DNA of 64,000 nt from Thermodesulfobacteriota bacterium (GCA_965203965.1 CBDBDR010000017.1:256001-320000); one strand, 5' to 3'; numbered from the stretch's first letter, positions 1 to 59,777 are shown. Program-made: numbers and translations. The notes: generated by a model not told the origin, from the letters alone.

Positions 1-143
1 AGCATGCAACGGCTACCTGTTGTAGAAACTGTATAGAGAAATGGCACGGAATGAAAAAGGGCAAAGAGTTGAATAGCAAGCAGAAAAGTTATATCTTGTC
101 AGTTATAAAGAGATGGTTGGAGGTTTACACCAGATATAGTTAA
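1..143 (+). CDS. DUF4186-family protein, 3' part (runs off window start)
   Basis: Frame from nt 3 reads HATATCCRNCIEKWHGMKKGKELNSKQKSYILSVIKRWLEVYTRYS* (TAA 141-143). HATATCCRxCxxKWH is the motif I recognise from DUF4186. Not in the ORF track. Confidence 0.75.
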   Translation, partial: HATATCCRNCIEKWHGMKKGKELNSKQKSYILSVIKRWLEVYTRYS

Positions 144-13047: not shown

Positions 13048-14070
13048 ATGCAGAAAGAATTAATGACGGGACTTATACTTGATGCGGTATCGCTGGAGGA
13101 TATAAAAAAATTAGCGATCAGGGCAGAAGATTCAAACTTTCATTCTATTTGGGCAACGGAACTGTATAGAACCTCTTTTCAGCAGTTGGCTGCCGCAGCA
13201 TCCGTAACAAGTAAAATAAAGCTCGGAACTGCTGTTGCACTGGCTTTTGCAAGAAGTCCCTTGACCACGGCGCTCACAACTCTTGATCTGGATGAGTTGT
13301 CCGGTGGCAGAGTTATACTTGGTCTTGGCGTGGGTGCTAAAAATACAAATGAAAAGTATCATGGGATCAAATATGGAAAGCCATTAAAGAGAATTAGAGA
13401 ATGTGCAGAGATAATTGAGCATTATATTTCATCTTCTCATCTTGATAAGGATCTTAAATACAGCGGGGAATATTACGATATTAACTCCAAAGGTTTTAAA
13501 AGGGTTTTCACGCCCATAAGGGACAAGATACCTTTTTACCTGGCAGGTATAGGAGACAACATGGCAAAATTATCAACTGAAATAGCAGATGGTTATTTAG
13601 GTCACGTTGTTTGCAATCGGAGCTACTTGAAAAACAAGGTCATGCCGGCGATCAATGAAGGTCTTAAAAAAGCAAATAAGCAAAGAAATGATTTTACGGT
13701 ATCTTCAATTATCACTTGTGCGGTTACAAACAAACGTGAGGAAGCCAGAAGGGCGGCAAAGGCAACCATAGGATTTTATGCAACGGTAAAAACTTATAGA
13801 CGACCTTTTGAGCTGGCAGGGTTTTCCGACCAGTTGGAAAAGATCAGAAATGCTTATTTTGATAGGGATATAAAAAGGATGATTGAGAGTGTTCCAGATG
13901 ATATGGTTGAAAAATTTGCAATAATTGGGGACGAGGATCACTGTAGAGAAAAAATAGAAAGTTACAGAAAAATAATAGACCTACCAATACTGAGCGTCCC
14001 ACATTACTTTATTGATTATGAAGACGTTAAGAAATATCAATATGAGTTACTTCGGGTTTTTGGGAATTGA
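13048..14070 (+). CDS. LLM-class (luciferase-like) flavin/F420-dependent oxidoreductase
   Basis: SIWATE, IKLGTAVALAFARSP, LDELSGGRVILGLG and EIADG motifs. Confidence 0.88.
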   Translation: MQKELMTGLILDAVSLEDIKKLAIRAEDSNFHSIWATELYRTSFQQLAAAASVTSKIKLGTAVALAFARSPLTTALTTLDLDELSGGRVILGLGVGAKNTNEKYHGIKYGKPLKRIRECAEIIEHYISSSHLDKDLKYSGEYYDINSKGFKRVFTPIRDKIPFYLAGIGDNMAKLSTEIADGYLGHVVCNRSYLKNKVMPAINEGLKKANKQRNDFTVSSIITCAVTNKREEARRAAKATIGFYATVKTYRRPFELAGFSDQLEKIRNAYFDRDIKRMIESVPDDMVEKFAIIGDEDHCREKIESYRKIIDLPILSVPHYFIDYEDVKKYQYELLRVFGN

Positions 14071-14143
14071 GTTTTAACGCGTATATTTCATTTTCGTAGC
14101 TCTTTTAACTTAGAGGTTGCCATTATGGATGCAAAAAGGCGCC

Positions 14144-15904
14144 CTATCTAACGCCCATCAATTTGTCAAAAAGTTGTTTTTCCTCTGGGTCTATGATCTG
14201 CATAATTATAGTAGCTTCACTTTCGCTTGGTTGTGATCCTGCCTTAGCATACTCGCCTGCAATTTCTACCAATGCCAATGCTTTGTAGGGATCAACTATT
14301 TTTTCAGCAATTGAGAGTGCTTGTATAAATTGTCCTGCCTCAGCATAATTGCCTGCAATTTCTACCAATTCCCAGACTTCGTAGGGATCAACTATTTTTT
14401 CAACAATTGAGAGTGCTTTTGACAGTGTCCTTTCCCTTTGCTCTCCTTTTTCATACATGGCTGCAATTCCTACTAATGCCCCGGCTTTGGAATAATCATC
14501 ATTTATATTTTCAACAATTGAGAGTGCTTTTGACAGTGTCCTTTCCCTTTGCTCTCCTTTTTCATACATGGCTGCAATTCTTGCCAATGCCCCGGCTTTG
14601 TATAAATAATGATTTATATTTTCAGCGATTGAGAGAGCTTTTGTAAATTGTCTTGCCTCAGCATACTTGTCTGCAATTCTTGCCAATGCCCCGGCTTTGT
14701 ATAAATAATGATTTATATTTTCAGCGATTGAGAGTGCTTTTGAAAGTTGTCCTGCCTCAGCATACTTGTCTGCAATTCTTGCCAATGCCCGGGCTTTTTT
14801 TGAATTATGATTTATATTTTCAGCAATTGAGAGTGCTTGTGACAGTATTTGTTCACTTTGCTCTCCTTTTGCATACTCGCCTGCAATGTCTGCCAATGCC
14901 CGGGCTTTGAAAAAATCATGATTTATATTTTCAGCGATTGAGAGAGCTTTTGTAAATTGTCCTGCCTTAGCATACTCGCCTGTAATTTTCTCTAATGCCC
15001 AGGCTTTGCTAGAATCATCATTTATATTTTCAGCAATTGAGAGAGCTTTTGTAAATTGTCCTGCCTTAGCATACTCGCCTGTAATTTTCTCTAATGCCCA
15101 GGCTTTTTTAGAATCATCGTTTATATTTTCAGCAGTTGAGAGAGCTTTTGTAAATTGTCCTGCTTTAGCATACTCGCCTGCAATGTTCTTCAATGCCTCG
15201 GCTTTGCGGAAATCATCATTTATATTTTCAGCAGTTGAGAGAGCTTTTGTAAATTGTCCTGCTTTAGCATACTTGCCTGCAATGTTCTTCAATGCCTCGG
15301 CTTTGGAATAATCATCATTTATATTTTCAGCAATTGAGAGTGCTTGTGACAGTATTTGTTCACTTTGCTCTCCTTTTGCATACTCGCCTGCAATGTCTGC
15401 CAATGCCCGGGCTTTGGAATAATCATGATTTATATTTTCAGCAATTGAAAGTGCTTTTGAAAGTTGTCCTGACCCAGCATACTTGACTGCAATTTCTGCC
15501 AATACAAAGGCTTTTTCTCCATCATGATTTATATTTTCAGCAAGAAACACAGCACATGACATCAAGTCTTGTTTACATTCAAGAAAATATTTAAAATAAC
15601 TTTCTACCTTCATAAATTCATTCAGCCTAAGACCTGATATTTCCATTTGGTTGGACGTTAGACCAACAGCAAGATTTGAAGAAGGATATTTTGATAATAT
15701 CGTCTCAATTTTCTGCTTCGCTTCTTTATACGAGGTATAAATTTTTGAATGATCATCAACTCCAATCATCTTCATAGTTTGGATTATCTGATTAGCCTCA
15801 ACATATAGCTGATTTGCTTTTTCATTTGGACTTTTTGAACAAGATAATAAGAACAACGCCACGCCTATGATAACAACAATTGTGTTTGAATATTGAACTC
15901 TCAT
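14144..15904 (-). CDS. Helical tandem-repeat (TPR/HEAT-like solenoid) lipoprotein, copy 1
   Basis: Signal peptide ending LLSC; 13 repeats of consensus AENINxxxxKAxALxxIAxxYAKAGQFTKALSI. ATG 15904 follows AAGGGAAG. Confidence 0.8.
   Translation of the reverse strand: MRVQYSNTIVVIIGVALFLLSCSKSPNEKANQLYVEANQIIQTMKMIGVDDHSKIYTSYKEAKQKIETILSKYPSSNLAVGLTSNQMEISGLRLNEFMKVESYFKYFLECKQDLMSCAVFLAENINHDGEKAFVLAEIAVKYAGSGQLSKALSIAENINHDYSKARALADIAGEYAKGEQSEQILSQALSIAENINDDYSKAEALKNIAGKYAKAGQFTKALSTAENINDDFRKAEALKNIAGEYAKAGQFTKALSTAENINDDSKKAWALEKITGEYAKAGQFTKALSIAENINDDSSKAWALEKITGEYAKAGQFTKALSIAENINHDFFKARALADIAGEYAKGEQSEQILSQALSIAENINHNSKKARALARIADKYAEAGQLSKALSIAENINHYLYKAGALARIADKYAEARQFTKALSIAENINHYLYKAGALARIAAMYEKGEQRERTLSKALSIVENINDDYSKAGALVGIAAMYEKGEQRERTLSKALSIVEKIVDPYEVWELVEIAGNYAEAGQFIQALSIAEKIVDPYKALALVEIAGEYAKAGSQPSESEATIIMQIIDPEEKQLFDKLMGVR
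14237..15541 (-). repeat. Intragenic tandem repeats of 96, 99 and 111 bp
   Basis: Recurrent TTTATATTTTCAGCA.TTGAGAGAGCTTTTGTAAATTGTCCTGC on the + strand. Confidence 0.95.
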
Positions 15905-16024
15905 ACTACTTCCCTTTTTCCTATACAATAAATAGCTAACAAATATACCTGACCTAAATGTCATTCAAGATACAAGCTATACCTTTCTTGACTACAAGTT
16001 CTTGATGAGACAAATTTAACTTCA

Positions 16025-16078
16025 ATGAAAATATTGATCTCAGGTTCCAGTGGATTGATAGGAAGAAGTTTAGTATGA
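16025..16078 (+). pseudogene. 5' stub of the TIGR01777-type gene (MKILISGSSGLIGRSLV*) at the duplication junction
   Basis: Identical to 18022-18071 up to 16074, then switches to a copy of the LLM gene 3' end (16074-16103). Confidence 0.85.
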
Positions 16079-16176
16079 ATTACTTCGGGTTTTTGGGAAT
16101 TGAGTTTTAACGCAGATATTTCAGCGTCGTAGCTCTTTCAACGCAGAGGTTGCCATTATGGATGCAAAAAGGCGCC

Positions 16177-17901
16177 CTATCTAACACCCATTAATTTGTC
16201 AAAAAGCTGTTTTGCCTCTGGGTCTATGATCTGCATAATTATAATAACGTCACTTTCGCTTGGTTGTGACTCTGCCTCAGCATATTTGACTGCAATTTCT
16301 ACCAATGCCTGAGTTTTGTAGAGATAACGATTTATATTTTCAGCAGTTGAGAGAGCTTTTGTAAATTGTCCTGCTTTAGCATACTCGCCTGCAATGTTCT
16401 TCAATGCCTCGGCTTTGCGGAAATCATCATTTATATTTTCAGCAGTTGAGAGAGTTTTTGTAAATTGTCCTGCCTTAGCATACTCGCCTGCAATGTTCTT
16501 CAATGCTAAGGCTTTGTAGCGACCATCGTTTATATTTTCAGCAGTTGAGAGAGCTTTTGTAAATTGTCCTGCCTTAGCATACTTGACTGCAATGTCTGCC
16601 AATGCCGAGGCTTTGCTAGAATCATCATTTATATTTTCAGCAATTGAGAGAGCTTTTGTAAATTGTCCTGCCTTAGCATACTCGCCTGTAATTTTCTCTA
16701 ATGCCCAGGCTTTTTTAGAATCATCGTTTATATTTTCAGCAGTTGAGAGAGCTTTTGTAAATTGTCCTGCTTTAGCATACTCGCCTGCAATGTTCTTCAA
16801 TGCCTCGGCTTTGCGGAAATCATCATTTATATTTTCAGCAGTTGAGAGAGCTTTTGTAAATTGTCCTGCTTTAGCATACTTGCCTGCAATGTTCTTCAAT
16901 GCCTCGGCTTTGCGGAAACCATCATTTATATTTTCAGCAATTGAGAGAGCTTTTGTAAATTGTCCTGACTCAGCATACTTGGCTGCAATTCTTTCCAATG
17001 CCCGGGCTTTGTCTAAATCATCATTTATATTTTCAGCAATTGAGAGAGCTTTTGTAAATTGTCCTGCTTTAGCATACTCGCCTGCAATGTATCCCAATGC
17101 CCAGGCTTTGTCGCGATGACTTATATTTTCAGCAGTTGAGAGAGCTTTTGTAAATTGTCCTGCCTTAGCATACTCGTCTGCAATGTTCTGCAATGCCTCG
17201 GCTTTGCGGAAACCATCATTTATATTTTCAGCGATTGAGAGAGCTTTTGTAAATTGTCCTGCTTTAGCATACTCGCCTGCAATGTTCTCTAATGCCCGGG
17301 CTTTGTCTAAATCATCATTTATATTTTCGGCAATTGAGAGAGCTTTTGACAGTATTTGTTCACTTTGCTCTCCTTTAGCATACTCGCCTGTAATTTTCTC
17401 TAATGCCCAGGCTTTTTTAGAATCATCGTTTATATTTTCAGCGATTGAGAGAGCTTTTGTAAATTGTCCTGCCTTAGCATACTCGTCTGCAATGTTCTTC
17501 AATGCCCAGGCTTTTTTAGAATCATCGTTTATATTTTCAGCAAGCAACGCAACACATGACATCAAGTCTTGTTTACATTCAAAAGAATATTTAAAATAAC
17601 TTTCTACCTCCATAAATTTGTTCAGTGTAAGACCTGATATTTTCATTTTGTTGGACGTCAGACCAACAGCAAGATCTGAAGAAGGATATTTTGATAATAT
17701 TGTCTCAATTTTCTGCTTCGCTTCTTTATACGATGTATAAACTTTTGAATGATCATCAACTCCAGTTGTCTTCATAGTTTGGATTATCTGATTAGCCTCA
17801 ACATATAGCTGATTTGCTTTTTCATTTGGATTTCTTGAACAAGATAATAAGCACAACACCACGCCGATGACAACAATTGTGTTTGAATATTGAACTCTCA
17901 T
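16177..17901 (-). CDS. Helical tandem-repeat (TPR/HEAT-like solenoid) lipoprotein, copy 2
   Basis: Paralogue of 14144-15904 with the same N-domain and C-cap; 13 repeats with different variable residues. Confidence 0.8.
   Translation of the reverse strand: MRVQYSNTIVVIGVVLCLLSCSRNPNEKANQLYVEANQIIQTMKTTGVDDHSKVYTSYKEAKQKIETILSKYPSSDLAVGLTSNKMKISGLTLNKFMEVESYFKYSFECKQDLMSCVALLAENINDDSKKAWALKNIADEYAKAGQFTKALSIAENINDDSKKAWALEKITGEYAKGEQSEQILSKALSIAENINDDLDKARALENIAGEYAKAGQFTKALSIAENINDGFRKAEALQNIADEYAKAGQFTKALSTAENISHRDKAWALGYIAGEYAKAGQFTKALSIAENINDDLDKARALERIAAKYAESGQFTKALSIAENINDGFRKAEALKNIAGKYAKAGQFTKALSTAENINDDFRKAEALKNIAGEYAKAGQFTKALSTAENINDDSKKAWALEKITGEYAKAGQFTKALSIAENINDDSSKASALADIAVKYAKAGQFTKALSTAENINDGRYKALALKNIAGEYAKAGQFTKTLSTAENINDDFRKAEALKNIAGEYAKAGQFTKALSTAENINRYLYKTQALVEIAVKYAEAESQPSESDVIIIMQIIDPEAKQLFDKLMGVR
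16270..17541 (-). repeat. Intragenic tandem repeats of 96, 99 and 111 bp
   Basis: Same repeat unit as 14237-15541. Confidence 0.95.
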
Positions 17902-18021
17902 ACTGCTTCCCTTTTTCCTATACAATAAATAGCTAACAAATATACCTGACCTAAATGTCATTCAAGATACAAGCTATACCTTTCTTGACTACAAGTTCTT
18001 GATGAGACAAATTTAACTTCA

Positions 18022-18915
18022 ATGAAAATATTGATCTCAGGTTCCAGTGGATTGATAGGAAGAAGTTTAGTTGGTTCTCTTATGAACGAAGGTCATAAGG
18101 TGATCAAGCTGGTAAGATCTGCTTCAAGGTCTGCTAAAGATGCAGTGTTTATAGATTATGAGAACAAAAGCTATGAGTTATCTGAGTTTGAGGGTTTTGA
18201 TGCAGTAATACATTTAGCTGGTGAGGGCATTGTTGGCAGATGGACAAAAAGAAAGAAAAAGGAGATCGTAAAAAGTAGAATAGATACTACAAGACTGCTT
18301 GTGGACATATTTAAAAAGGTTTCACAGCCGCCCAACCATTTCTTGTGTGCGTCGGCAATAGGAATATATGGACATACTAAATCCGTTATAGCTGATGAAG
18401 ATTCCAATCTGGGATCAGGGTTTCTTCCGAAACTTGCCAGGGATTGGGAAGAAGAGGCAGGTCGTGCAAGGGATTTTGGTGCTAGGGTCGTTAATTTAAG
18501 GATAGGTCTGGTGTTGGATAAAAAAGATGGTGCATTATCAAAGATGCTTACTCCTTTCAGGTTTGGATTGGGGGGCTGCATAGGCGACGGCAGTCAAAGT
18601 TGGAGTTGGATATCCATTGACGATATAGTTTCCTCCATCAGTTTCATTCTGGACAATGATCGTATTGAGGGTCCCATAAACCTTGTGTCTCCAAATCCGT
18701 GTACCAATAAACATTTCACAAAAGTATTGGCAAACATTCTTAACAGACCTGCTTTTTTTCATATACCTGCCAGTGTAATAAGGTTGGTATTTGGCGAAAT
18801 GGGTGAAGAGGTTTTGCTGGCTGGTGCAGAAGTAAGACCGGCAAAATTACTGGAAAATAATTACAAGTTTATAGATACAGATATTAAGGCAACTCTGATA
18901 AAATTAATAAATTGA
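18022..18915 (+). CDS. TIGR01777 / YfcH-like NAD-dependent epimerase family protein
   Basis: ISGSSGLIG, VIHLAGE, ASAIGIYG, WEEEA, RVVNLRIGLVL and SWISIDD motifs. Confidence 0.92.
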   Translation: MKILISGSSGLIGRSLVGSLMNEGHKVIKLVRSASRSAKDAVFIDYENKSYELSEFEGFDAVIHLAGEGIVGRWTKRKKKEIVKSRIDTTRLLVDIFKKVSQPPNHFLCASAIGIYGHTKSVIADEDSNLGSGFLPKLARDWEEEAGRARDFGARVVNLRIGLVLDKKDGALSKMLTPFRFGLGGCIGDGSQSWSWISIDDIVSSISFILDNDRIEGPINLVSPNPCTNKHFTKVLANILNRPAFFHIPASVIRLVFGEMGEEVLLAGAEVRPAKLLENNYKFIDTDIKATLIKLIN

Positions 18916-55547: not shown

Positions 55548-58500
55548 TTAAACATCATTTTCCGCAGTATTTAGCGTCATCGTGATTGTCTTCATGATTT
55601 GGTCAGTCTCGGACAGGATTTTGAGGATGCTTTGATAATGCTTCACATCCTCGAAGCTGAGAACGCGACCTTTGCGGTATTTGAGCCATTTCTGGGCGGG
55701 CTGATAGCCGCCAATGTAGAAATCCCATGATACGGCGGGCGCGTCGGCAAAATACTGGCTGTCATTGATCCAGACGCAGCCATCCTCGAAACGGAACTTG
55801 CCCACCTCGTTGTCACCGTCGCCCGTGAACGGGTAGGGGGTCGCACCGATTGAGGCAGGTTCCATCAGGTGGAGCTTGCGTAACTCCGCGCCCTTGGCGG
55901 ACACGTCCCAGAATTCGTCTGGGGTGGTCGGCCACGGGATGCGGGGGAAGTCGATTTTCAGGAACTCGGCATAGGTATCGCGATAAGCGGGACAATGCAG
56001 CACGCCATAGATGTAATCGAACACCTGCATCTCGTCGGGTTTGCCATCTTCGGGATGATCAGCCAGTTTTTGAATCTTCTTGTAAAGCTTTGGATCGAAA
56101 TTCACCCGCTGAGTCTGATCGAGATCTTGTTCGTCGGGGTAGAGGTAGAGGGGGGCAAAGATTGATCCAGTTGTTGCCTCTCCGCACTTCACATCTGATA
56201 CATACGTTGAGCAGTAGAAATGATTAACGCCCTTTTTGTTGCTTCGCGCTGTGATGAGTGAAATATTTGGATGTAACATATGTTTAGAAACATCCATTCT
56301 AGGCCATGAAACCAACGCAGGATGCAGAGCGACTTTCCTGTTATCAAAAGGCCGAAACGCATAGGGAACGATATAATCAAGGATGTTTCCACATGGAATG
56401 CGCTGTCTCTCTGCATCAAGCTTCCAATCTCTAGTGTCCCCCGCTGGAAATTTTTTGGAAGTCTGGGAAAAGAATTTCCTGCGAATAGTTTCTGTCGAGA
56501 TGCTTTCGTCGCAAATTTCTGAAATTCTCTCCTGAATTTCTGCGTTGCTTTCTCCCACGGCAACAGGGTCACGAGATGTTTGTATCCCCGTAGTATTCAA
56601 AGGGAAAATCTCTACAATTGAGAAACCATTTTGATATGCAGGAGGAGCACTTACCCCTTTCCCGTTGAAGGTGAAATATGGCTCCGACGGATTCAATTTT
56701 TCTGATGAAATGCTGATGCGGTTAAGTGACTGAAGACGCTCATATTTAAGTTCACAACTTCCCCAAAGTTCAGAGAATGTGACTTCAGAGTTTCTGATCT
56801 GAGGTTGAGGCTTCTTCTTGATTGCTATGACTATCGAAACACCCTGTTGGATATCGAATACGTTTTCATCCTTGATGCCATTTGGCGAAATTTCACCATG
56901 TTTGGAATTTCCATGTAAATCAACGACATGAATTTTGTCGAACGTCTGCATAAGGTGCCATCTCATTCCTCGAAAAGTCGGGTTGTCGAGGTAGCCATGG
57001 TTGGTGATGAAGCCAAGAATGCCTTCGCCGTTCTTTGCGATCAGGCTCTCCGACAGGCGGATGAACTTGACGTAGTCATCATGCAAGGAGTGCTTTCGCT
57101 CTCCAAAGTGTTTGCCATCAACGTATTTGTAGTCCTCGATCAGATTGCTGATCCAATCGCCCATGTTCTGCGAAATCCCAGAGTATGGTGGATTCCCGAT
57201 CACGCACATGATGGGCATGTCGCGCTTGATTGTGTTCGCGCCCTTGGCCTCGCGGGATAGCCATTGCGTGAAAGGCAGGGTTTGGTTGGCAGGCTCGCCT
57301 TCCTCAAGGCTGTTGGTCAGATAGACTGACAGGCGCGGTGGGTTTCCCGTGGGCTTATAACCTAGCTCGGTCAGGATCATGTCGAGTTTCATATGGCACA
57401 TGGCATAGGACGCCATGAGAAGCTCGAAGCCGTGCAGGCGGGGAATCAGATCGTCCTCGATGTATTTCGACCACATCGCGGGTGCGATGTCCTGAATCTT
57501 GGGTGCGATTTGCTTGATCACCTCGGCCAAAAACGTGCCTGTTCCTGTGGCAGGATCGAGGATTTGAACGCGGTGAACATCCTTCTTGATCGCGACGGGT
57601 TTGCCCTTCCTGTCGGTCTTGCCTGTGTCCCAGTCGATGGTCACTTTCGACGTGTCAGCCAGTCCATCGGGCAGGCTGAATTCCGTCTGCAAGACCTCGT
57701 CCACGGCGCGCACGATGAAATTCACAACGGGTTCGGGTGTGTACCAAACCCCTCGTGCCTTGCGTTTATCGGGGTTATAGGCAGCGAGGAATGTCTCGTA
57801 GAAATGAAGGAAGGGATCGTTCCGGCCCGTCAGCTTACCAAACCCCTCCATCAGCTTTGCCACATCACAGGCTTGGAACACGCGCGCAAGATCATCGATG
57901 ATCCACGCGATGCGGTCGTCGAGATCATAACCAGCTATGTAGCTGAATAGCGAGCGCAGAAACGGGTTGGACTTGGGTAGCAGCTCCAATGCCTCCTGGC
58001 GGCTGAATGTGTCCAGACTGGTGTCGTGGAGCCGAGCTGCAAACATCCCATAGGCGATAGTTTCAGCATAAATGTCGGCGAAATCTTCTGCCTCGATGTT
58101 GTGGATCAGGTTTTCCCTGAACGCCTCATATTGTCCTACAAGTTCTTCTGCATCGTCAGCCAGGGTATTTTGCAGCACATCCTTGATCAGAATGGCTTTA
58201 CCTGCCATTCGTTCGGCCAGTTCACGGGGGCTGGTGATCGTTTGGGGCCTCTGGGCAACAAAATCCCGCAGTAGATTTTCGAGTGTCGTGTATTGATCCG
58301 GCTTCGGTTGAATGCCCGGAGTGAGGTCGGCGATGCGTACCGAGGCGGTCAGTTCGCCGTCACGGTAAAAATCCCAATCAAGGCAGTTGGTATAGATCAG
58401 ATTGGGTAGTGCAGCGCGGTAGCGTTCCTGTTGTGCCTTGTTGCTGCCTTTGAGGCCACGAATTCCAACGGGAATATCTTTGGCCTCAACGTGGCCGATC

Positions 58501-58688
58501 ACAATATCACCCTGCGACACGATAAAATCAGGCGCACCACATTCGATCTTTTTGGGTTCGTTCAGGGCTGTCACATCATCCGAAATCGAGGACAACAGAT
58601 TTTGCAAGGTGGCGCGGTATGAGTGTTCCGTTGCATTGCCCGTATTATAAATGCTGGTGACTTCTACCAGATACCCTTGAATATTCAA
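55548..58688 (-). CDS. Single-chain restriction-modification enzyme (Type IIG / Type ISP-like, no helicase)
   Basis: N-terminal PDF...VEAK nuclease motif, GVWYTP, ILDPATGTGTFL (motif I), IGNPPY (motif IV), C-terminal DFPRIP...IGGYQPAQKWLK specificity region. TTG 58688 overlaps the upstream TGA. Confidence 0.9.
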   Translation of the reverse strand: MNIQGYLVEVTSIYNTGNATEHSYRATLQNLLSSISDDVTALNEPKKIECGAPDFIVSQGDIVIGHVEAKDIPVGIRGLKGSNKAQQERYRAALPNLIYTNCLDWDFYRDGELTASVRIADLTPGIQPKPDQYTTLENLLRDFVAQRPQTITSPRELAERMAGKAILIKDVLQNTLADDAEELVGQYEAFRENLIHNIEAEDFADIYAETIAYGMFAARLHDTSLDTFSRQEALELLPKSNPFLRSLFSYIAGYDLDDRIAWIIDDLARVFQACDVAKLMEGFGKLTGRNDPFLHFYETFLAAYNPDKRKARGVWYTPEPVVNFIVRAVDEVLQTEFSLPDGLADTSKVTIDWDTGKTDRKGKPVAIKKDVHRVQILDPATGTGTFLAEVIKQIAPKIQDIAPAMWSKYIEDDLIPRLHGFELLMASYAMCHMKLDMILTELGYKPTGNPPRLSVYLTNSLEEGEPANQTLPFTQWLSREAKGANTIKRDMPIMCVIGNPPYSGISQNMGDWISNLIEDYKYVDGKHFGERKHSLHDDYVKFIRLSESLIAKNGEGILGFITNHGYLDNPTFRGMRWHLMQTFDKIHVVDLHGNSKHGEISPNGIKDENVFDIQQGVSIVIAIKKKPQPQIRNSEVTFSELWGSCELKYERLQSLNRISISSEKLNPSEPYFTFNGKGVSAPPAYQNGFSIVEIFPLNTTGIQTSRDPVAVGESNAEIQERISEICDESISTETIRRKFFSQTSKKFPAGDTRDWKLDAERQRIPCGNILDYIVPYAFRPFDNRKVALHPALVSWPRMDVSKHMLHPNISLITARSNKKGVNHFYCSTYVSDVKCGEATTGSIFAPLYLYPDEQDLDQTQRVNFDPKLYKKIQKLADHPEDGKPDEMQVFDYIYGVLHCPAYRDTYAEFLKIDFPRIPWPTTPDEFWDVSAKGAELRKLHLMEPASIGATPYPFTGDGDNEVGKFRFEDGCVWINDSQYFADAPAVSWDFYIGGYQPAQKWLKYRKGRVLSFEDVKHYQSILKILSETDQIMKTITMTLNTAENDV

Positions 58689-59521
58689 TGCCTGCAAAAT
58701 CGCGCCCCGCTGCGTTTGTTGCCATCTGTGAACGGATGATCCTTGACGATAAAGTACAGAAGATGCGCTGCCTTTTCTTCCAAACTTGGATAAACGTCTT
58801 TTCTAAAAGCGGATTGAAACACACCGCCGACGATACCCGTCACACTCCCGCTTTCTCGCTCCTGCCCGAAAATTTCCGTAGCTTCTTTTTTTCTCACGAA
58901 TTCTTTTTTTAACACCACCAAAGCCGCTTTGAGATTTTCCGCCGTAAATGTTATCTGCTTCCTACTTGCCGCCGATTTTGGTAAACTGCCTTTATCATAA
59001 GCGTCTAGTGAAAACCAAGTACCCGCAAAAATACTGACAAGCTCCAAAATGTCCTTTGCTTTGACTTCATCGCTTGCGGGCAGCAAATCTCGTACGTTGG
59101 ACACTGCTTGCATAAATTTTTTGTAGTTCTTCCCGGCGCGCTTTTTGTTGATCGAGTAGCCAAGGAGCAAGTGTTGTTTGAGTGTTTGGGTCGCCCAGAT
59201 ACGGAATTGCGTGGCTTGTTTAGAATTTACACGGTAGCCCGCAGAGAGTATAGCGTCTAAATTGTAATATTCTATTTGACGAGTTACTTGCCTCTTCCCT
59301 TCTTTTTGAACTGTTTCCAAAACGGAAACGGTTGATTTTCTGTTGAGTTCACCTGTCCGATAAATGTTTTTCAAATGCTTTGATATAGCAGGCCTCTGGA
59401 CGTCAAATAAATCGGCGATTTGTTGTAAAGTCCCCCAGATTGTATCCTTTTCAATATCCCCGCGAAACGCTATTTCTCCGTTTTCGGTTTGATACAAAAC
59501 AATGTTCGGCTTAGTTTTCAT
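58685..59521 (-). pseudogene. RhuM-Fic/Doc fusion protein, C-terminally truncated
   Basis: RhuM motifs (ISKHLKNIY..GEL, YYNLDAILS.GYRVNSKQATQFRIWA) and Fic motif HPFTDGNKRSG, after which it ends abruptly in ARFCRH*. Confidence 0.75.
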
Positions 59522-59777
59522 GCTCAACCCCGCTCAAATTCTTCAAAATTCGCTTATTTAATTCCGCTTCTTCCTTGATCTGTTCCTCAAACTCATCTTT
59601 TATATCTTCTTCTCTAAATATATCCCTAAAACTCGCACCCTCTGCACTACTACCTATGGGTGATGTAAATACTTTGTTCTTATTAAACGGAGGATCTAAG
59701 TCAATACAGTCAGAGTTTATTCCTTCTAATACTTCAAGATTGTCATGACAGAATATAGTTCTATTACTTACATTCAT
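59511..59777 (-). pseudogene. Chimeric remnant: N-terminus of a beta-class DNA methyltransferase joined to a Type I HsdM-like C-terminal tail
   Basis: IFCHDNLEVL...CIDLDPPFN, then EFEEQIKEEAELNKRILKNL; only 88 aa, no AdoMet-binding motif. Confidence 0.65.

What the first reader, a model, noticed from the sequence alone, without database searches (positions are those of the whole stretch)
14144..17901. Paired lipoproteins forming a natural repeat-protein library with a hypervariable helix face
Seen: each paralogue has 13 repeats with a near-invariant scaffold AENIN-xxxx-KA-x-AL-xx-IA-xx-YAKAGQFTKALSI. Variation concentrates at repeat positions 6-9, 12, 15-16 and 19-20, for example DDSK/W/EK/GE, DGFR/E/QN/DE, HYLY/G/AR/DK, DDLD/R/EN/GE and DGRY/L/KN/GE. 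Positions 8/9, 12, 15/16 and 19/20 follow i+3/i+4 spacing, so they lie on one helix face, and they include many W, Y, F, R, D and E residues. The same sub-blocks recur in new combinations: DYS occurs with KAR, KAE and KAG; KAWAL with KN, EK and GY; the 37-aa linker attaches to different heads. Known: this is how engineered alphaRep/DARPin binders and lamprey VLRs concentrate diversity. Inference: a membrane-anchored recognition system diversified by recombination within and between repeats, possibly for host, phage or competitor interaction.
Basis: partly seen in the sequence, partly recalled or inferred. Interest (0 to 1): 0.78.

Follow-up and report, generated by a model that had tools for sequence, protein, structure and literature searches.

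The report
Paired TPR-like repeat lipoproteins, sponge bacterium
Two neighbouring genes of a sponge-associated bacterium encode lipid-anchored proteins built from 13 near-identical TPR-like helical repeats that differ mainly on one helix face, a striking but essentially ordinary example of a repeat protein with a variable binding groove.

Summary
Two tandem minus-strand genes (14144-15904 and 16177-17901) encode lipoproteins. Each has a lipobox Cys, a ~100-aa helical N-domain, 13 repeats of 33/37 aa, and a conserved C-tail. Repeat variation sits at columns 7-9, 12, 15-16 and 19-20, on one face of a 17-residue helix.

The repeats are TPR-like: Pfam TPR_12 scores above its cut-off, the closest solved sequence is a designed consensus TPR, and the AF2 model has pLDDT 90.8. 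The variable columns align with TPR positions 31-33, 2, 5, 6, 9 and 10, largely the known hypervariable ligand-binding face.

Units recombine (PHI p<=0.0015), and some are nucleotide-identical within and between the paralogues. Evidence for positive selection is mixed: one test was positive and two were not significant.

The pair is a 3.95-kb insertion between genes that are adjacent in four relatives. The N-domain family was found in 0 of 100 other genomes of the order. The locus occurs in sponge metagenome runs.

No diversification machinery was found: no DGR link and no silent cassettes. The covered parts are identical in two other studies. One related fragment (P0095) carries different variable residues.

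Verdict: a new member of a known kind, a TPR-class repeat protein of a sponge-associated bacterium. "Natural library" overstates it.

The parts
14071..18021 (.). 3.95-kb lineage-specific insertion holding both genes, between the LLM-class oxidoreductase gene (13048-14070, +) and the yfcH-type gene (18022-18915, +)
   Evidence: In G001, G003, G002 and G005 the orthologues of the two flanking genes are adjacent, with gaps of 43, 44, 21 and 84 nt.
14144..15904 (-). Gene A: TPR-like repeat lipoprotein. The ORF extends to 15964; the likely start is the second ATG at 15904.
   Evidence: Pfam TPR_12 scores 48.7 bits against a cut-off of 30.1.
16177..17901 (-). Gene B: paralogous TPR-like repeat lipoprotein. 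The ORF extends to 17961; the likely start is 17901.
   Evidence: Pfam TPR_12 scores 77.9 bits. A and B are 71% identical overall.
15839..15904 (-). Signal peptide and lipobox (LLSC) of A. The Cys is ORF residue 42.
   Evidence: Read from the sequence. A Cys directly before the N-domain is visible in 25 of 27 metagenome homologues.
17839..17901 (-). Signal peptide and lipobox (LLSC) of B. The Cys is ORF residue 41.
15542..15838 (-). N-terminal helical domain of A, the family-defining part, with no Pfam model
17542..17838 (-). N-terminal helical domain of B (P0094)
   Evidence: phmmer found 175 cluster representatives at E<=1e-3, nearly all listed matches starting within ~100 residues of the N-terminus, most at about residues 22-120. 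The AF2 model has pLDDT 87 and is helical. The best structural matches, at Z 7.3, are non-specific helical bundles.
14237..15541 (-). Repeat array of A (13 units of 33/37/32 aa)
16273..17541 (-). Repeat array of B (13 units)
   Evidence: In the AF2 model each unit is a 17-residue helix plus a 9-residue helix.
14144..14236 (-). Conserved C-terminal tail of A (SQPSESE...IIMQIIDPE...)
   Evidence: 90% nucleotide identity to B's tail. Similar tails occur in homologues P0003, P0006 and P0011.
16177..16272 (-). Conserved C-terminal tail of B
14137..14156 (-). Terminator-like hairpin plus T-run at the 3' end of A
16170..16189 (-). Terminator-like hairpin plus T-run at the 3' end of B
15965..16024 (-). 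60 nt upstream of ORF A, identical to the 60 nt upstream of ORF B (17962-18021). This shows that the whole gene with its flanks was duplicated.

Best explanation
These are two tandemly duplicated genes for TPR-like alpha-solenoid lipoproteins. They were acquired as a small accessory insertion by a bacterium that lives in marine sponges. After Sec export and lipidation at the lipobox Cys, each protein consists of four parts. First comes a ~100-residue helical N-domain that defines a small, unannotated lipoprotein family. Then come 13 repeats of 33/37 residues, each a long helix A plus a short helix B, followed by a short conserved tail. The arrays grew and are kept similar by unequal crossing-over and gene conversion between units and between the two genes (shown). 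The units differ mainly at eight positions on the exposed face of helix A. These positions align with the ligand-contacting concave face of canonical TPRs, so the array presents a continuous groove with a different set of side chains in every repeat (structure shown; the concave assignment is inferred from sequence register). The most likely function is static binding of an extended protein or peptide ligand (inferred). The most likely setting is the cell envelope or surface of a sponge symbiont, in the manner of the TPR-class 'eukaryotic-like proteins' that alter phagocytosis by sponge cells (inferred from habitat and literature). Divergence at the groove positions is at least neutral and probably driven by selection for different contacts. 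It is not produced by a dedicated diversification mechanism.
For: TPR-like nature: Pfam TPR_12 is above its cut-off in both proteins and in 31 of the 34 proteins of alignment A1. The closest solved sequence is the designed consensus TPR 7obi (E 3e-10), with register col11=TPR1. The AF2 model has pLDDT 90.8, pTM 0.79 and regular helix pairs. Foldseek hits are designed PPR, LGN and APC TPR solenoids. Lipoprotein: LLSC lipobox, and a Cys before the N-domain in 25 of 27 metagenome homologues. Variable face: mean entropy of the a-priori TPR concave columns is 1.62 against 0.62 bits (permutation p 0.0023), and the helical moment has p 0.003. TPR positions 2, 5, 9, 12, 13, 33 and 34 are the published hypervariable concave face, and 2, 5, 6, 9, 12 and 13 contact ligands (PMC1261162, passages read). 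Other surface columns (2, 3, 5, 36) are as variable as the groove across the family (3.3-3.5 bits over 395 units of 79 homologues) but nearly invariant here, so variation within these arrays is selective for the groove. Substitution rates: variable columns have pN 0.45 and pS 0.34; scaffold columns have pN 0.08 and pS 0.19. In a neutral simulation matched for pS, the top-8 pN reached the observed value in 2 of 1000 runs. Recombination and duplication: some units are identical at nucleotide level within and between the genes; PHI p 0.0 to 0.0015; 55.6% of 703 site pairs are incompatible; the N-terminal regions are 93% identical at nucleotide level and the 60-nt upstream segments are identical. 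Insertion; the N-domain profile was found in 0 of 100 other genomes of the order. Habitat: eight runs (X1-X8, studies P1 and P2: four labelled sponge metagenome, four 'organism A') hold 61-81% of the sampled words; of the four runs laid, X1, X2 and X9 are DNA-type runs and give >=99% contigs. TPR-class ELPs from sponge symbionts change phagocytosis (PMC13747020, passages read).
Against: No ligand, localisation or host effect is known for this family. The N-domain has no Pfam match and only non-specific helical-bundle structural matches (Z<=7.3). Genomic neighbours in the window are housekeeping genes. The excess of non-synonymous change is not robust. The tree-free count is 41N:8S against 24N:10S (Fisher p 0.18). 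The ratio form of the simulation test gives 137 of 1000. With pS raised to 0.28, 255 of 1000 simulations reach the observed pN. I had no model coordinates, so 'concave face' rests on the HMMER register to a consensus TPR and on the literature, not on measured accessibility. Helix B is only 9 residues and the period is 33, so the groove geometry may differ from canonical TPRs. Periplasmic TPR lipoproteins with purely envelope functions are common (recalled: NlpI, BamD, LpoA, PilF), so a host-facing role is not required.
Confidence: 0.6

Rival explanations
1. Envelope housekeeping scaffold. The proteins are periplasm-facing outer-membrane lipoproteins that act as adaptors for envelope proteins, in the manner of NlpI, BamD, LpoA or pilotins. 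Differences between repeats only reflect that each repeat touches a different part of a fixed bacterial partner. There is no role in host, phage or competitor recognition.
For: Lipobox with Ser at +2 (the sorting rule is recalled from E. coli). TPR lipoproteins of the envelope are a well-known class (recalled). In one homologue locus a FlgO/CsgG-like lipoprotein gene lies directly upstream (L027). The covered parts are identical in samples from different studies.
Against: The genes are a lineage-specific insertion, not found in 100 other genomes of the order. Homologues often sit beside mobile or defence genes rather than envelope operons. Repeat number in the family ranges from 1 to at least 12 by the unit HMM. 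Such range is unusual for a fixed stoichiometric partner.
Confidence: 0.22
2. Neutral relaxation. The eight variable columns are simply the least constrained surface positions of young, concertedly evolving repeats. No selection for diversity and no special binding role is needed.
For: The tree-free N:S contrast is not significant (p 0.18). The ratio test gives 137 of 1000. The same columns are also the most variable across the whole family (Spearman 0.58).
Against: Other family-variable surface columns (2, 3, 5, 36) are almost invariant here, with pN 0-0.14. pN of the variable columns (0.45) is more than twice the scaffold pS (0.19). Only 2 of 1000 fully neutral simulations at matched pS reach the observed top-8 pN. 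Many variable codons differ at 2-3 nucleotides while neighbouring codons are identical.
Confidence: 0.12
3. One reading: an actively diversifying, recombination-driven recognition repertoire (a natural 'library' comparable to VLR or engineered alphaRep/DARPin libraries). It would generate new specificities within populations.
For: Mosaic units and a significant PHI test. Identical units are shared between the paralogues. P0095 from another data set has a B-like N-domain, an A1-like first unit and a novel second unit. One X1 contig joins 15407 to 16818, and clustered alternative letters occur at 15356-15362 and 16596-16603 in X1.
Against: There are only two genes and no silent donor cassettes; repeat DNA matches nowhere else in the 1.99-Mb genome apart from one 31-nt weak hit. 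No recombinase, invertase or DGR lies at the locus. In X2 all 49 contigs are >=99% alike with no listed changes. In X9 (year 2010, another study) all 4 contigs are >=99% alike, and its pieces 15210-15693 and 17456-18071 show 0 differences. The X1 variants lie in contigs of which 94 of 154 fit two places, so they may be cross-mapped units, and the joint has only 22 letters on its short side.
Confidence: 0.06

Closest known systems
Canonical and consensus TPR proteins (Pfam TPR_12/TPR_1; designed CTPR, PDB 7obi and 3kd7; LGN/GPSM2)
   Same: Helix-turn-helix repeats forming a solenoid. Signature hydrophobic and small residues are in register (L14=W4, I17=L7, A18=G8, Y21=Y11, the Ala of FTKALS=A20). 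Hypervariation falls on helix A positions equivalent to TPR 2, 5, 6 and 9.
   Different: The period is 33 (or 37), not 34, with one position (TPR 27) missing. Helix A is 17 residues and helix B only 9 in the model. TPR positions 12, 13 and 34 are conserved here, whereas 10, 31 and 32 vary. The Pro at TPR 32 is not conserved.
TPR-class eukaryotic-like proteins (ELPs) of sponge symbionts, e.g. ELP5 (PMC13747020 and works cited there)
   Same: A TPR repeat protein encoded by a bacterium present in sponge metagenomes. It is an accessory, apparently horizontally acquired gene.
   Different: I did not compare sequences with ELP5, which is not available to the tools. No phagocytosis assay exists for this protein. 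This one is a lipoprotein with a family-specific N-domain.
Envelope TPR lipoproteins (NlpI, BamD, LpoA, PilF/PilW; recalled, not tested)
   Same: A lipobox-anchored all-helical TPR scaffold in a Gram-negative bacterium.
   Different: Those have few, diverged repeats and are conserved core genes. NCBIfam gave no match above cut-off to any of them. Here there are 13 near-identical repeats in an accessory insertion.
Designed PPR proteins (PDB 5i9f, 6een), the top Foldseek hits
   Same: Long arrays of near-identical helical hairpins forming a superhelix (E about 1e-6, TM 0.29-0.50).
   Different: PPRs are RNA-binding organellar proteins with a two-residue code. The Pfam PPR match here covers only 13 of 31 profile positions, and the protein is exported and lipidated.
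Engineered alphaRep/DARPin libraries and lamprey VLRs
   Same: A conserved scaffold with variation concentrated on one surface.
   Different: Those are libraries of very many variants made by randomisation or by somatic assembly from donor cassettes. Here there are 26 fixed units in two genes and no donor cassettes. No HEAT, ankyrin or LRR family matched.

Membership tests
TPR superfamily (Pfam TPR_12 and clan) | Profile match above the curated cut-off | tested here: met
   TPR_12 scores 48.7 bits (A) and 77.9 bits (B) against a cut-off of 30.1. For B, TPR_30 and TPR_1 are also above cut-off. 31 of the 34 proteins of alignment A1 match TPR_12.
TPR superfamily (Pfam TPR_12 and clan) | 34-residue repeat made of two antiparallel helices of similar length | tested here: inconclusive
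   The period is 33, 37 or 32 aa. The model shows helix pairs of 17 and 9 residues. The fold class is the same but the geometry is a variant.
TPR superfamily (Pfam TPR_12 and clan) | Signature residues at positions 4, 7, 8, 11, 20, 24, 27 and 32 | tested here: inconclusive
   The register from the HMMER alignment to 7obi gives L, I, A, Y and A at positions 4, 7, 8, 11 and 20 (met). Position 27 is deleted, position 32 is hypervariable rather than Pro, and position 24 is Ala.
Bacterial lipoprotein | N-terminal signal peptide ending in a lipobox with an invariant Cys | tested here: met
   The N-terminus reads MRVQYSNTIVVI(I)GV.L.LLSC. 25 of 27 homologue ORFs show a Cys directly before the N-domain, one lacks it (L030) and one was not visible in the printed part (L017). 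No dedicated predictor was available, and the lipobox pattern is recalled.
Sponge-symbiont eukaryotic-like protein (TPR class) | TPR protein encoded by a sponge-associated microbe | tested here: met
   Eight runs (X1-X8, studies P1 and P2) hold 61-81% of the sampled words: four are labelled sponge metagenome and four 'organism A'. Contigs from X1, X2 and X9 are >=99% alike.
Sponge-symbiont eukaryotic-like protein (TPR class) | Alters uptake or digestion by host or amoebal phagocytes | not testable with these tools
   This needs the assays of PMC13747020.
Diversity-generating retroelement target | Nearby reverse transcriptase with a template repeat homologous to the variable region | tested here: not met
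   RVT_1 matches lie only on contig C1. Repeat DNA has no copy outside the two genes. The variable codons show no adenine-specific pattern.
Sel1-like, HEAT or ankyrin repeats | Profile match | tested here: not met
   None of these families appears among the Pfam matches at E<=1.
PPR | 35-residue repeat matched over its length | tested here: inconclusive
   The whole-protein score for B is 30.3 bits against a cut-off of 25, but no single stretch passes and the best covers profile positions 10-22 of 31. Structural hits to designed PPRs have TM 0.29-0.50.

The most novel reading that the evidence does not exclude
The arrays act as a modular reader of an extended polymer, in the manner of TALE, PPR or PUF proteins and designed repeat-peptide binders. 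Each near-identical 33-residue unit would use its 6-8 groove residues to recognise one element of a repetitive host or microbial surface polymer (a peptide repeat or a glycan). Reshuffling of units between the two paralogues and between strains would then re-programme specificity in a sponge symbiont.
Probability: 0.08. Interest if true: 0.75.

Novelty: new member of a known kind. Interest (0 to 1): 0.33.

Why it matters
If the groove-facing residues do set ligand specificity, this pair would be a compact, naturally "consensus-designed" TPR scaffold from a sponge symbiont. It could be used to ask what such symbiont repeat proteins bind in the host. The unannotated N-domain lipoprotein family (175 clusters at 50% identity) would also gain a first functional handle. 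As it stands, the finding is a clean textbook-style illustration of three things in one accessory gene pair: concerted evolution of repeats, a variable TPR binding face and tandem gene duplication. It is not a new kind of system.

Tried and rejected
DGR or targeted mutagenesis: rejected.

Silent cassettes elsewhere in the genome: none, apart from one 31-nt weak match.

Close relatives:
- The genome-contig scan gave one chance-level hit.
- The metagenome-contig scan with the A/B/P0095 alignment gave none.
- The exact proteins are absent from the 15-billion-protein collection.
- The 'near' search gave at most 40% identity.
- The 'shorter' search gave only P0095.

Phage or plasmid origin: the N-domain has no match in viral contigs or PLSDB plasmids.

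Fold of the N-domain: only tied helical-bundle matches at Z<=7.3 (MIT, Bro1 and Vta1-like), which is not informative.

ESM Atlas: unnamed or TPR clusters from Myxococcota, Verrucomicrobiota and Planctomycetota. The recognition score was below the reliable range.

Conserved gene neighbourhood in 10 longer metagenome loci: no shared neighbour was found.

Promoter scan: the hits inside the repeats are repeat artefacts.

Read laying:
- All four runs are short contigs that break in the arrays, so repeat number, order and population variation could not be measured.
- Uncovered bins prove nothing.
- RNA-library contigs (X10) lie on parts of both arrays, but this does not prove transcription.

Mapping of variable positions on 3D coordinates: not possible, because model coordinates are not exposed to the script machine.

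Earlier notes of this scan: none concern this locus.

Technical slips: one search was a script error of mine, repeated correctly.


Full report
WHAT IS THERE

Two ORFs lie head-to-tail on the minus strand: A at 14144..15964 (606 aa) and B at 16177..17961 (594 aa). Both begin with an identical 20-codon extension. A second ATG follows, and after it a typical signal peptide ending in LLSC. The likely products therefore start at 15904 and 17901 and are lipidated at Cys42 and Cys41 of the ORFs.

Each protein has four parts after the lipobox Cys:
- a ~100-residue N-domain;
- a short Cys-containing linker;
- 13 repeat units beginning AENI, mostly 33 aa, with five units of 37 aa and two of 32 aa across the pair;
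- a conserved tail (SQPSES...IIMQIIDPE...).

Tandem Repeats Finder sees the arrays as period 99 at 14572-15543 and 16272-17543.

The duplication covers whole genes with their flanks:
- the 60 nt upstream of the two ORFs are identical;
- the first 141 codons are 93% identical at nucleotide level;
- the tails are 90% identical;
- about 73 nt downstream are similar.

Each gene ends in a terminator-like hairpin.

Over the 26 units, entropy is 1.45-2.64 bits at columns 7, 8, 9, 12, 15, 16, 19 and 20. It is at most 1.1 bits in all other columns, and nine columns are invariant. The AF2 model of B was built on an alignment of 34 sequences and has pLDDT 90.8 and pTM 0.79. It gives a 17-residue helix (columns 7-23), a 3-residue turn, a 9-residue helix (columns 27-33 plus 1-2) and a 4-residue loop. 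Within the long helix the variation has a strong helical moment, 0.48 against 0.195 for shuffled columns (p 0.003). It therefore occupies one face, and the invariant K10, L14, I17 and Y21 occupy the other.

WHAT KIND OF REPEAT

Pfam TPR_12 is above its curated cut-off in both proteins (48.7 and 77.9 bits against 30.1). For B, TPR_30 and TPR_1 are above cut-off too. No Sel1, HEAT, ankyrin or LRR family appears. The closest solved sequence is the designed consensus TPR CTPR-rv4 (7obi, E 3e-10), followed by LGN and CTPR390.

The printed alignment fixes the register: column 11 = TPR position 1, L14 = W4, I17 = L7, A18 = G8, Y21 = Y11. The variable columns 12, 15, 16, 19 and 20 then equal TPR positions 2, 5, 6, 9 and 10, and columns 7-9 equal TPR positions 31-33.

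Magliery and Regan (PMC1261162; passages read) report two relevant facts. TPR positions 2, 5, 9, 12, 13, 33 and 34 are the most variable and lie on the concave face. Positions 2, 5, 6, 9, 12 and 13 contact ligands in HOP. Using those positions as an a-priori class, the mean entropy here is 1.62 bits against 0.62 for the rest (permutation p 0.0023). The overlap is partial: TPR 12, 13 and 34 are conserved here, while 10, 31 and 32 vary. Foldseek places the model among designed PPR, LGN, APC and OGT solenoids with low TM scores (0.17-0.31 by query length), as expected for long superhelices. I could not read the model coordinates. 'Concave' is therefore an inference from register, not a measurement.

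A FAMILY, AND WHAT IS SPECIAL IN THE WINDOW

The near-length search found 93 relatives, none above 40% identity. The best ones (P0003, P0006, P0007, P0019, P0022) share the full architecture: lipobox, N-domain with PNEKAN..LYVEA...SKYPSS, repeats, and a QPSE-type tail.

The N-domain alone (P0094) finds 175 cluster representatives among 1.84 billion at E<=1e-3, and 50 at <=1e-10. Nearly all of the 150 listed matches begin within about 100 residues of the N-terminus, most at about residues 22-120; three do not: P0141, P0191 and P0201. It has no Pfam model. It folds as a helical bundle (pLDDT 87) with only non-specific structural matches (best Z 7.3, tied rows).

In 28 metagenome loci, 27 ORFs carry the N-domain, and 25 of those show a Cys just before it. 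By my unit HMM they have 0 to 12 repeats, and none of the loci shows a second copy. Short full-length members with a single repeat exist (P0114, P0121, P0131).

I analysed 395 units from 79 homologues:
- The structural columns are conserved: K10 70%, L14 87%, I17 82%, A18 89%, Y21 85%, G25 83%.
- The groove columns are the most variable, at 3.2-4.0 bits.
- The outer-surface columns 2, 3, 5 and 36 are about as variable, at 3.3-3.5 bits.

In the window's arrays those outer columns are almost invariant. Mean identity between units is also unusually high: 0.63 for A and 0.77 for B, against a median of 0.35 (maximum 0.70) for 41 homologues. The window therefore holds a young, strongly homogenised version of a family-typical array, and the differences have been kept selectively on the helix-A face.

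HOW THE VARIATION AROSE

Units A4, B8 and B12 are identical at nucleotide level, as are A5 and B9. A2 and A7 differ by 2 of 111 nt. 55.6% of 703 informative site pairs are incompatible, and the PHI statistic is below all or nearly all permutations (p 0.0 at window 5, 0.0015 at window 10, 0.046 at window 15). Heads, middles and tails occur in different combinations. Unequal crossing-over and gene conversion within and between the two genes are therefore well supported.

Selection is less clear.
- Nei-Gojobori counts over all unit pairs give pN 0.45 and pS 0.34 at the eight variable columns, and pN 0.08 and pS 0.19 at scaffold columns.
- To correct for having picked the most variable columns, I simulated fully neutral codon evolution on a UPGMA tree of the units. 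At matched pS (0.20), the eight most variable columns reached the observed pN (0.439) in 2 of 1000 runs.
- The ratio pN(top 8)/pS was reached in 137 of 1000 runs. With pS raised to 0.28, the pN was reached in 255 of 1000.
- A tree-free lower-bound count (41 non-synonymous and 8 synonymous states against 24 and 10) is not significant (Fisher p 0.18).

My reading is that the groove columns evolve at least neutrally and probably faster, while the rest of the surface is held constant. This is suggestive of diversifying selection, not proof.

NO DEDICATED DIVERSIFIER

The repeat DNA matches only the two genes in the 1.99-Mb genome, apart from one 31-nt weak hit. Reverse-transcriptase matches lie only on contig C1. 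The variable codons show no adenine-specific pattern. The neighbours in the window are housekeeping genes: pepA, an ion channel, an LLM-class oxidoreductase, yfcH, pdxH, an OMP and EF-G.

ORIGIN AND HABITAT

In four relatives (G001, G003, G002, G005) the LLM oxidoreductase and yfcH genes are adjacent, with gaps of 21-84 nt. The 3.95 kb between them in the window is thus an insertion. The N-domain profile matched 0 of 100 other genomes of the order, 80 of them at least 90% complete. With protein B as query, 40 relatives gave only three weak TPR matches at 26-29% identity.

In longer metagenome loci the family gene often lies next to mobile or defence genes:
- Rep3 + ParA + integrase (L023);
- primase + AAA_25 + HicB-like (L015, L013);
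- rve (L020);
- DDE transposase (L030);
- a restriction-modification set (L032);
- integrase (L033).

No match was found in viral contigs or PLSDB plasmids.

Public runs that hold the locus include:
- sponge metagenomes (X1 and X6-X8, one study);
- runs labelled 'organism A' (X2-X5, another study);
- a 2010 metagenome (X9);
- marine metatranscriptomes at small shares (X10-X13).

When laid, X2 gave 49 of 49 contigs at >=99% with no listed change. X9 gave 4 of 4 at >=99%, including pieces 15210-15693 and 17456-18071 with no differences. X10 (an RNA library) gave 26 of 29 at >=99%, lying on parts of both arrays. X1 gave 131 of 154 at >=99%, plus two small clusters of alternative letters and one weak joint; 94 of its contigs fit two places, so cross-mapping between units is likely. 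All of these are short contigs that break in the arrays. They therefore show presence, and sequence identity only in the parts they cover, and they do not settle the array structure. The best holder may be the source sample.

The only close relative among proteins is P0095, a 224-aa fragment on a 6.6-kb ENA contig. Its N-domain is 95% identical to B's. Its three units are, in order, an A1-like unit (5 differences), a 37-aa unit matching none in the window (10-11 differences, mostly at variable columns), and an A3/B7-like unit (2 differences from B7). Arrays therefore do differ between related lineages, mainly at the groove positions and by mosaicism.

FUNCTION

Nothing is known for this family. 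TPR and ankyrin 'eukaryotic-like proteins' are a recognised hallmark of sponge symbionts. A TPR-class ELP, expressed alone in Synechococcus or E. coli, impairs completion of phagocytosis by sponge cells or amoebae (PMC13747020, passages read; search listing).

Taken together, the evidence is habitat, accessory status and an exported TPR array with a selectively variable groove. On that basis the best-supported mechanism is static binding of an extended protein ligand, most plausibly at the host interface. An envelope-scaffold role is the main alternative. The mature proteins are mildly acidic (pI 5.6 and 6.4). Of the 207 variable-position residues, 48% are charged and 14% aromatic. This fits protein binding rather than nucleic-acid binding.

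COMPARISON AND NOVELTY

By profile, sequence register and predicted fold these are members of the TPR superfamily. They have a variant geometry: a 33-residue period with a long helix A and a short helix B. The combination of a conserved scaffold and a hypervariable concave face is published behaviour of TPRs. Tandem near-identical repeats with recombination are ordinary repeat-protein evolution.

What is new is modest. The lipoprotein family is unannotated, and the pair is an unusually clean, young example from a sponge-associated genome. The literature searches found general TPR and ELP work. They turned up nothing on this family, though they were not designed to be exhaustive.

This is a new member of a known kind, of moderate-to-low interest.

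Noticed in passing
window 55548-59527 (minus strand): A stretch of higher G+C (0.43-0.49 against about 0.38 elsewhere) encodes a 1049-aa protein with a Type ISP restriction-modification C-terminal specificity domain and a RhuM-family protein. It is probably a foreign defence island.
   Followed up: no
L013-L040 (metagenome loci), e.g. L023:92-10399, L015:206-5711, L032:710-4675: Homologues of the lipoprotein family often sit beside plasmid, mobile or defence genes: Rep3 + ParA + integrase, primase + AAA_25 + HicB-like, transposases, and a Bsp6I/Vsr/C5-methylase set. This suggests the family travels as accessory cargo. No viral or PLSDB match was found.
   Followed up: partly
L027:4988-5908 and L027:5920-6318 (also L029): In this locus a FlgO/CsgG-like lipoprotein gene lies 12 nt upstream of the family gene, which may be a functional partner in some lineages.
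   Followed up: no
G000 contig C1: 14340-15092, 1079-1330, 28490-28798 (L010-L012): One full and two partial reverse-transcriptase (RVT_1) ORFs lie within 30 kb on another contig of the same genome. The type (group II intron, retron or DGR) was not determined. There is no sequence link to the repeat arrays.
   Followed up: partly
window 15964-15905 and 17961-17902 (minus strand): Both ORFs carry an identical in-frame 20-codon extension (MTFRSGIFVSYLLYRKKGSS) upstream of the signal-peptide Met. It is probably untranslated leader duplicated with the gene, but its perfect conservation (1 nt difference in 60) is notable.
   Followed up: no
window 15640-15664 and 17641-17665 region (linker ECKQDLMSC): Two Cys residues 7 apart (mature positions 89 and 96) sit in the linker between the N-domain and the first repeat in both paralogues. 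Only the second is common in homologues. They may form a periplasmic disulfide.
   Followed up: no
P0114, P0121, P0131 (homologues): Some family members are complete with a single repeat between the N-domain and the C-tail (170-180 aa), so repeat number in the family spans 1 to at least 13.
   Followed up: no
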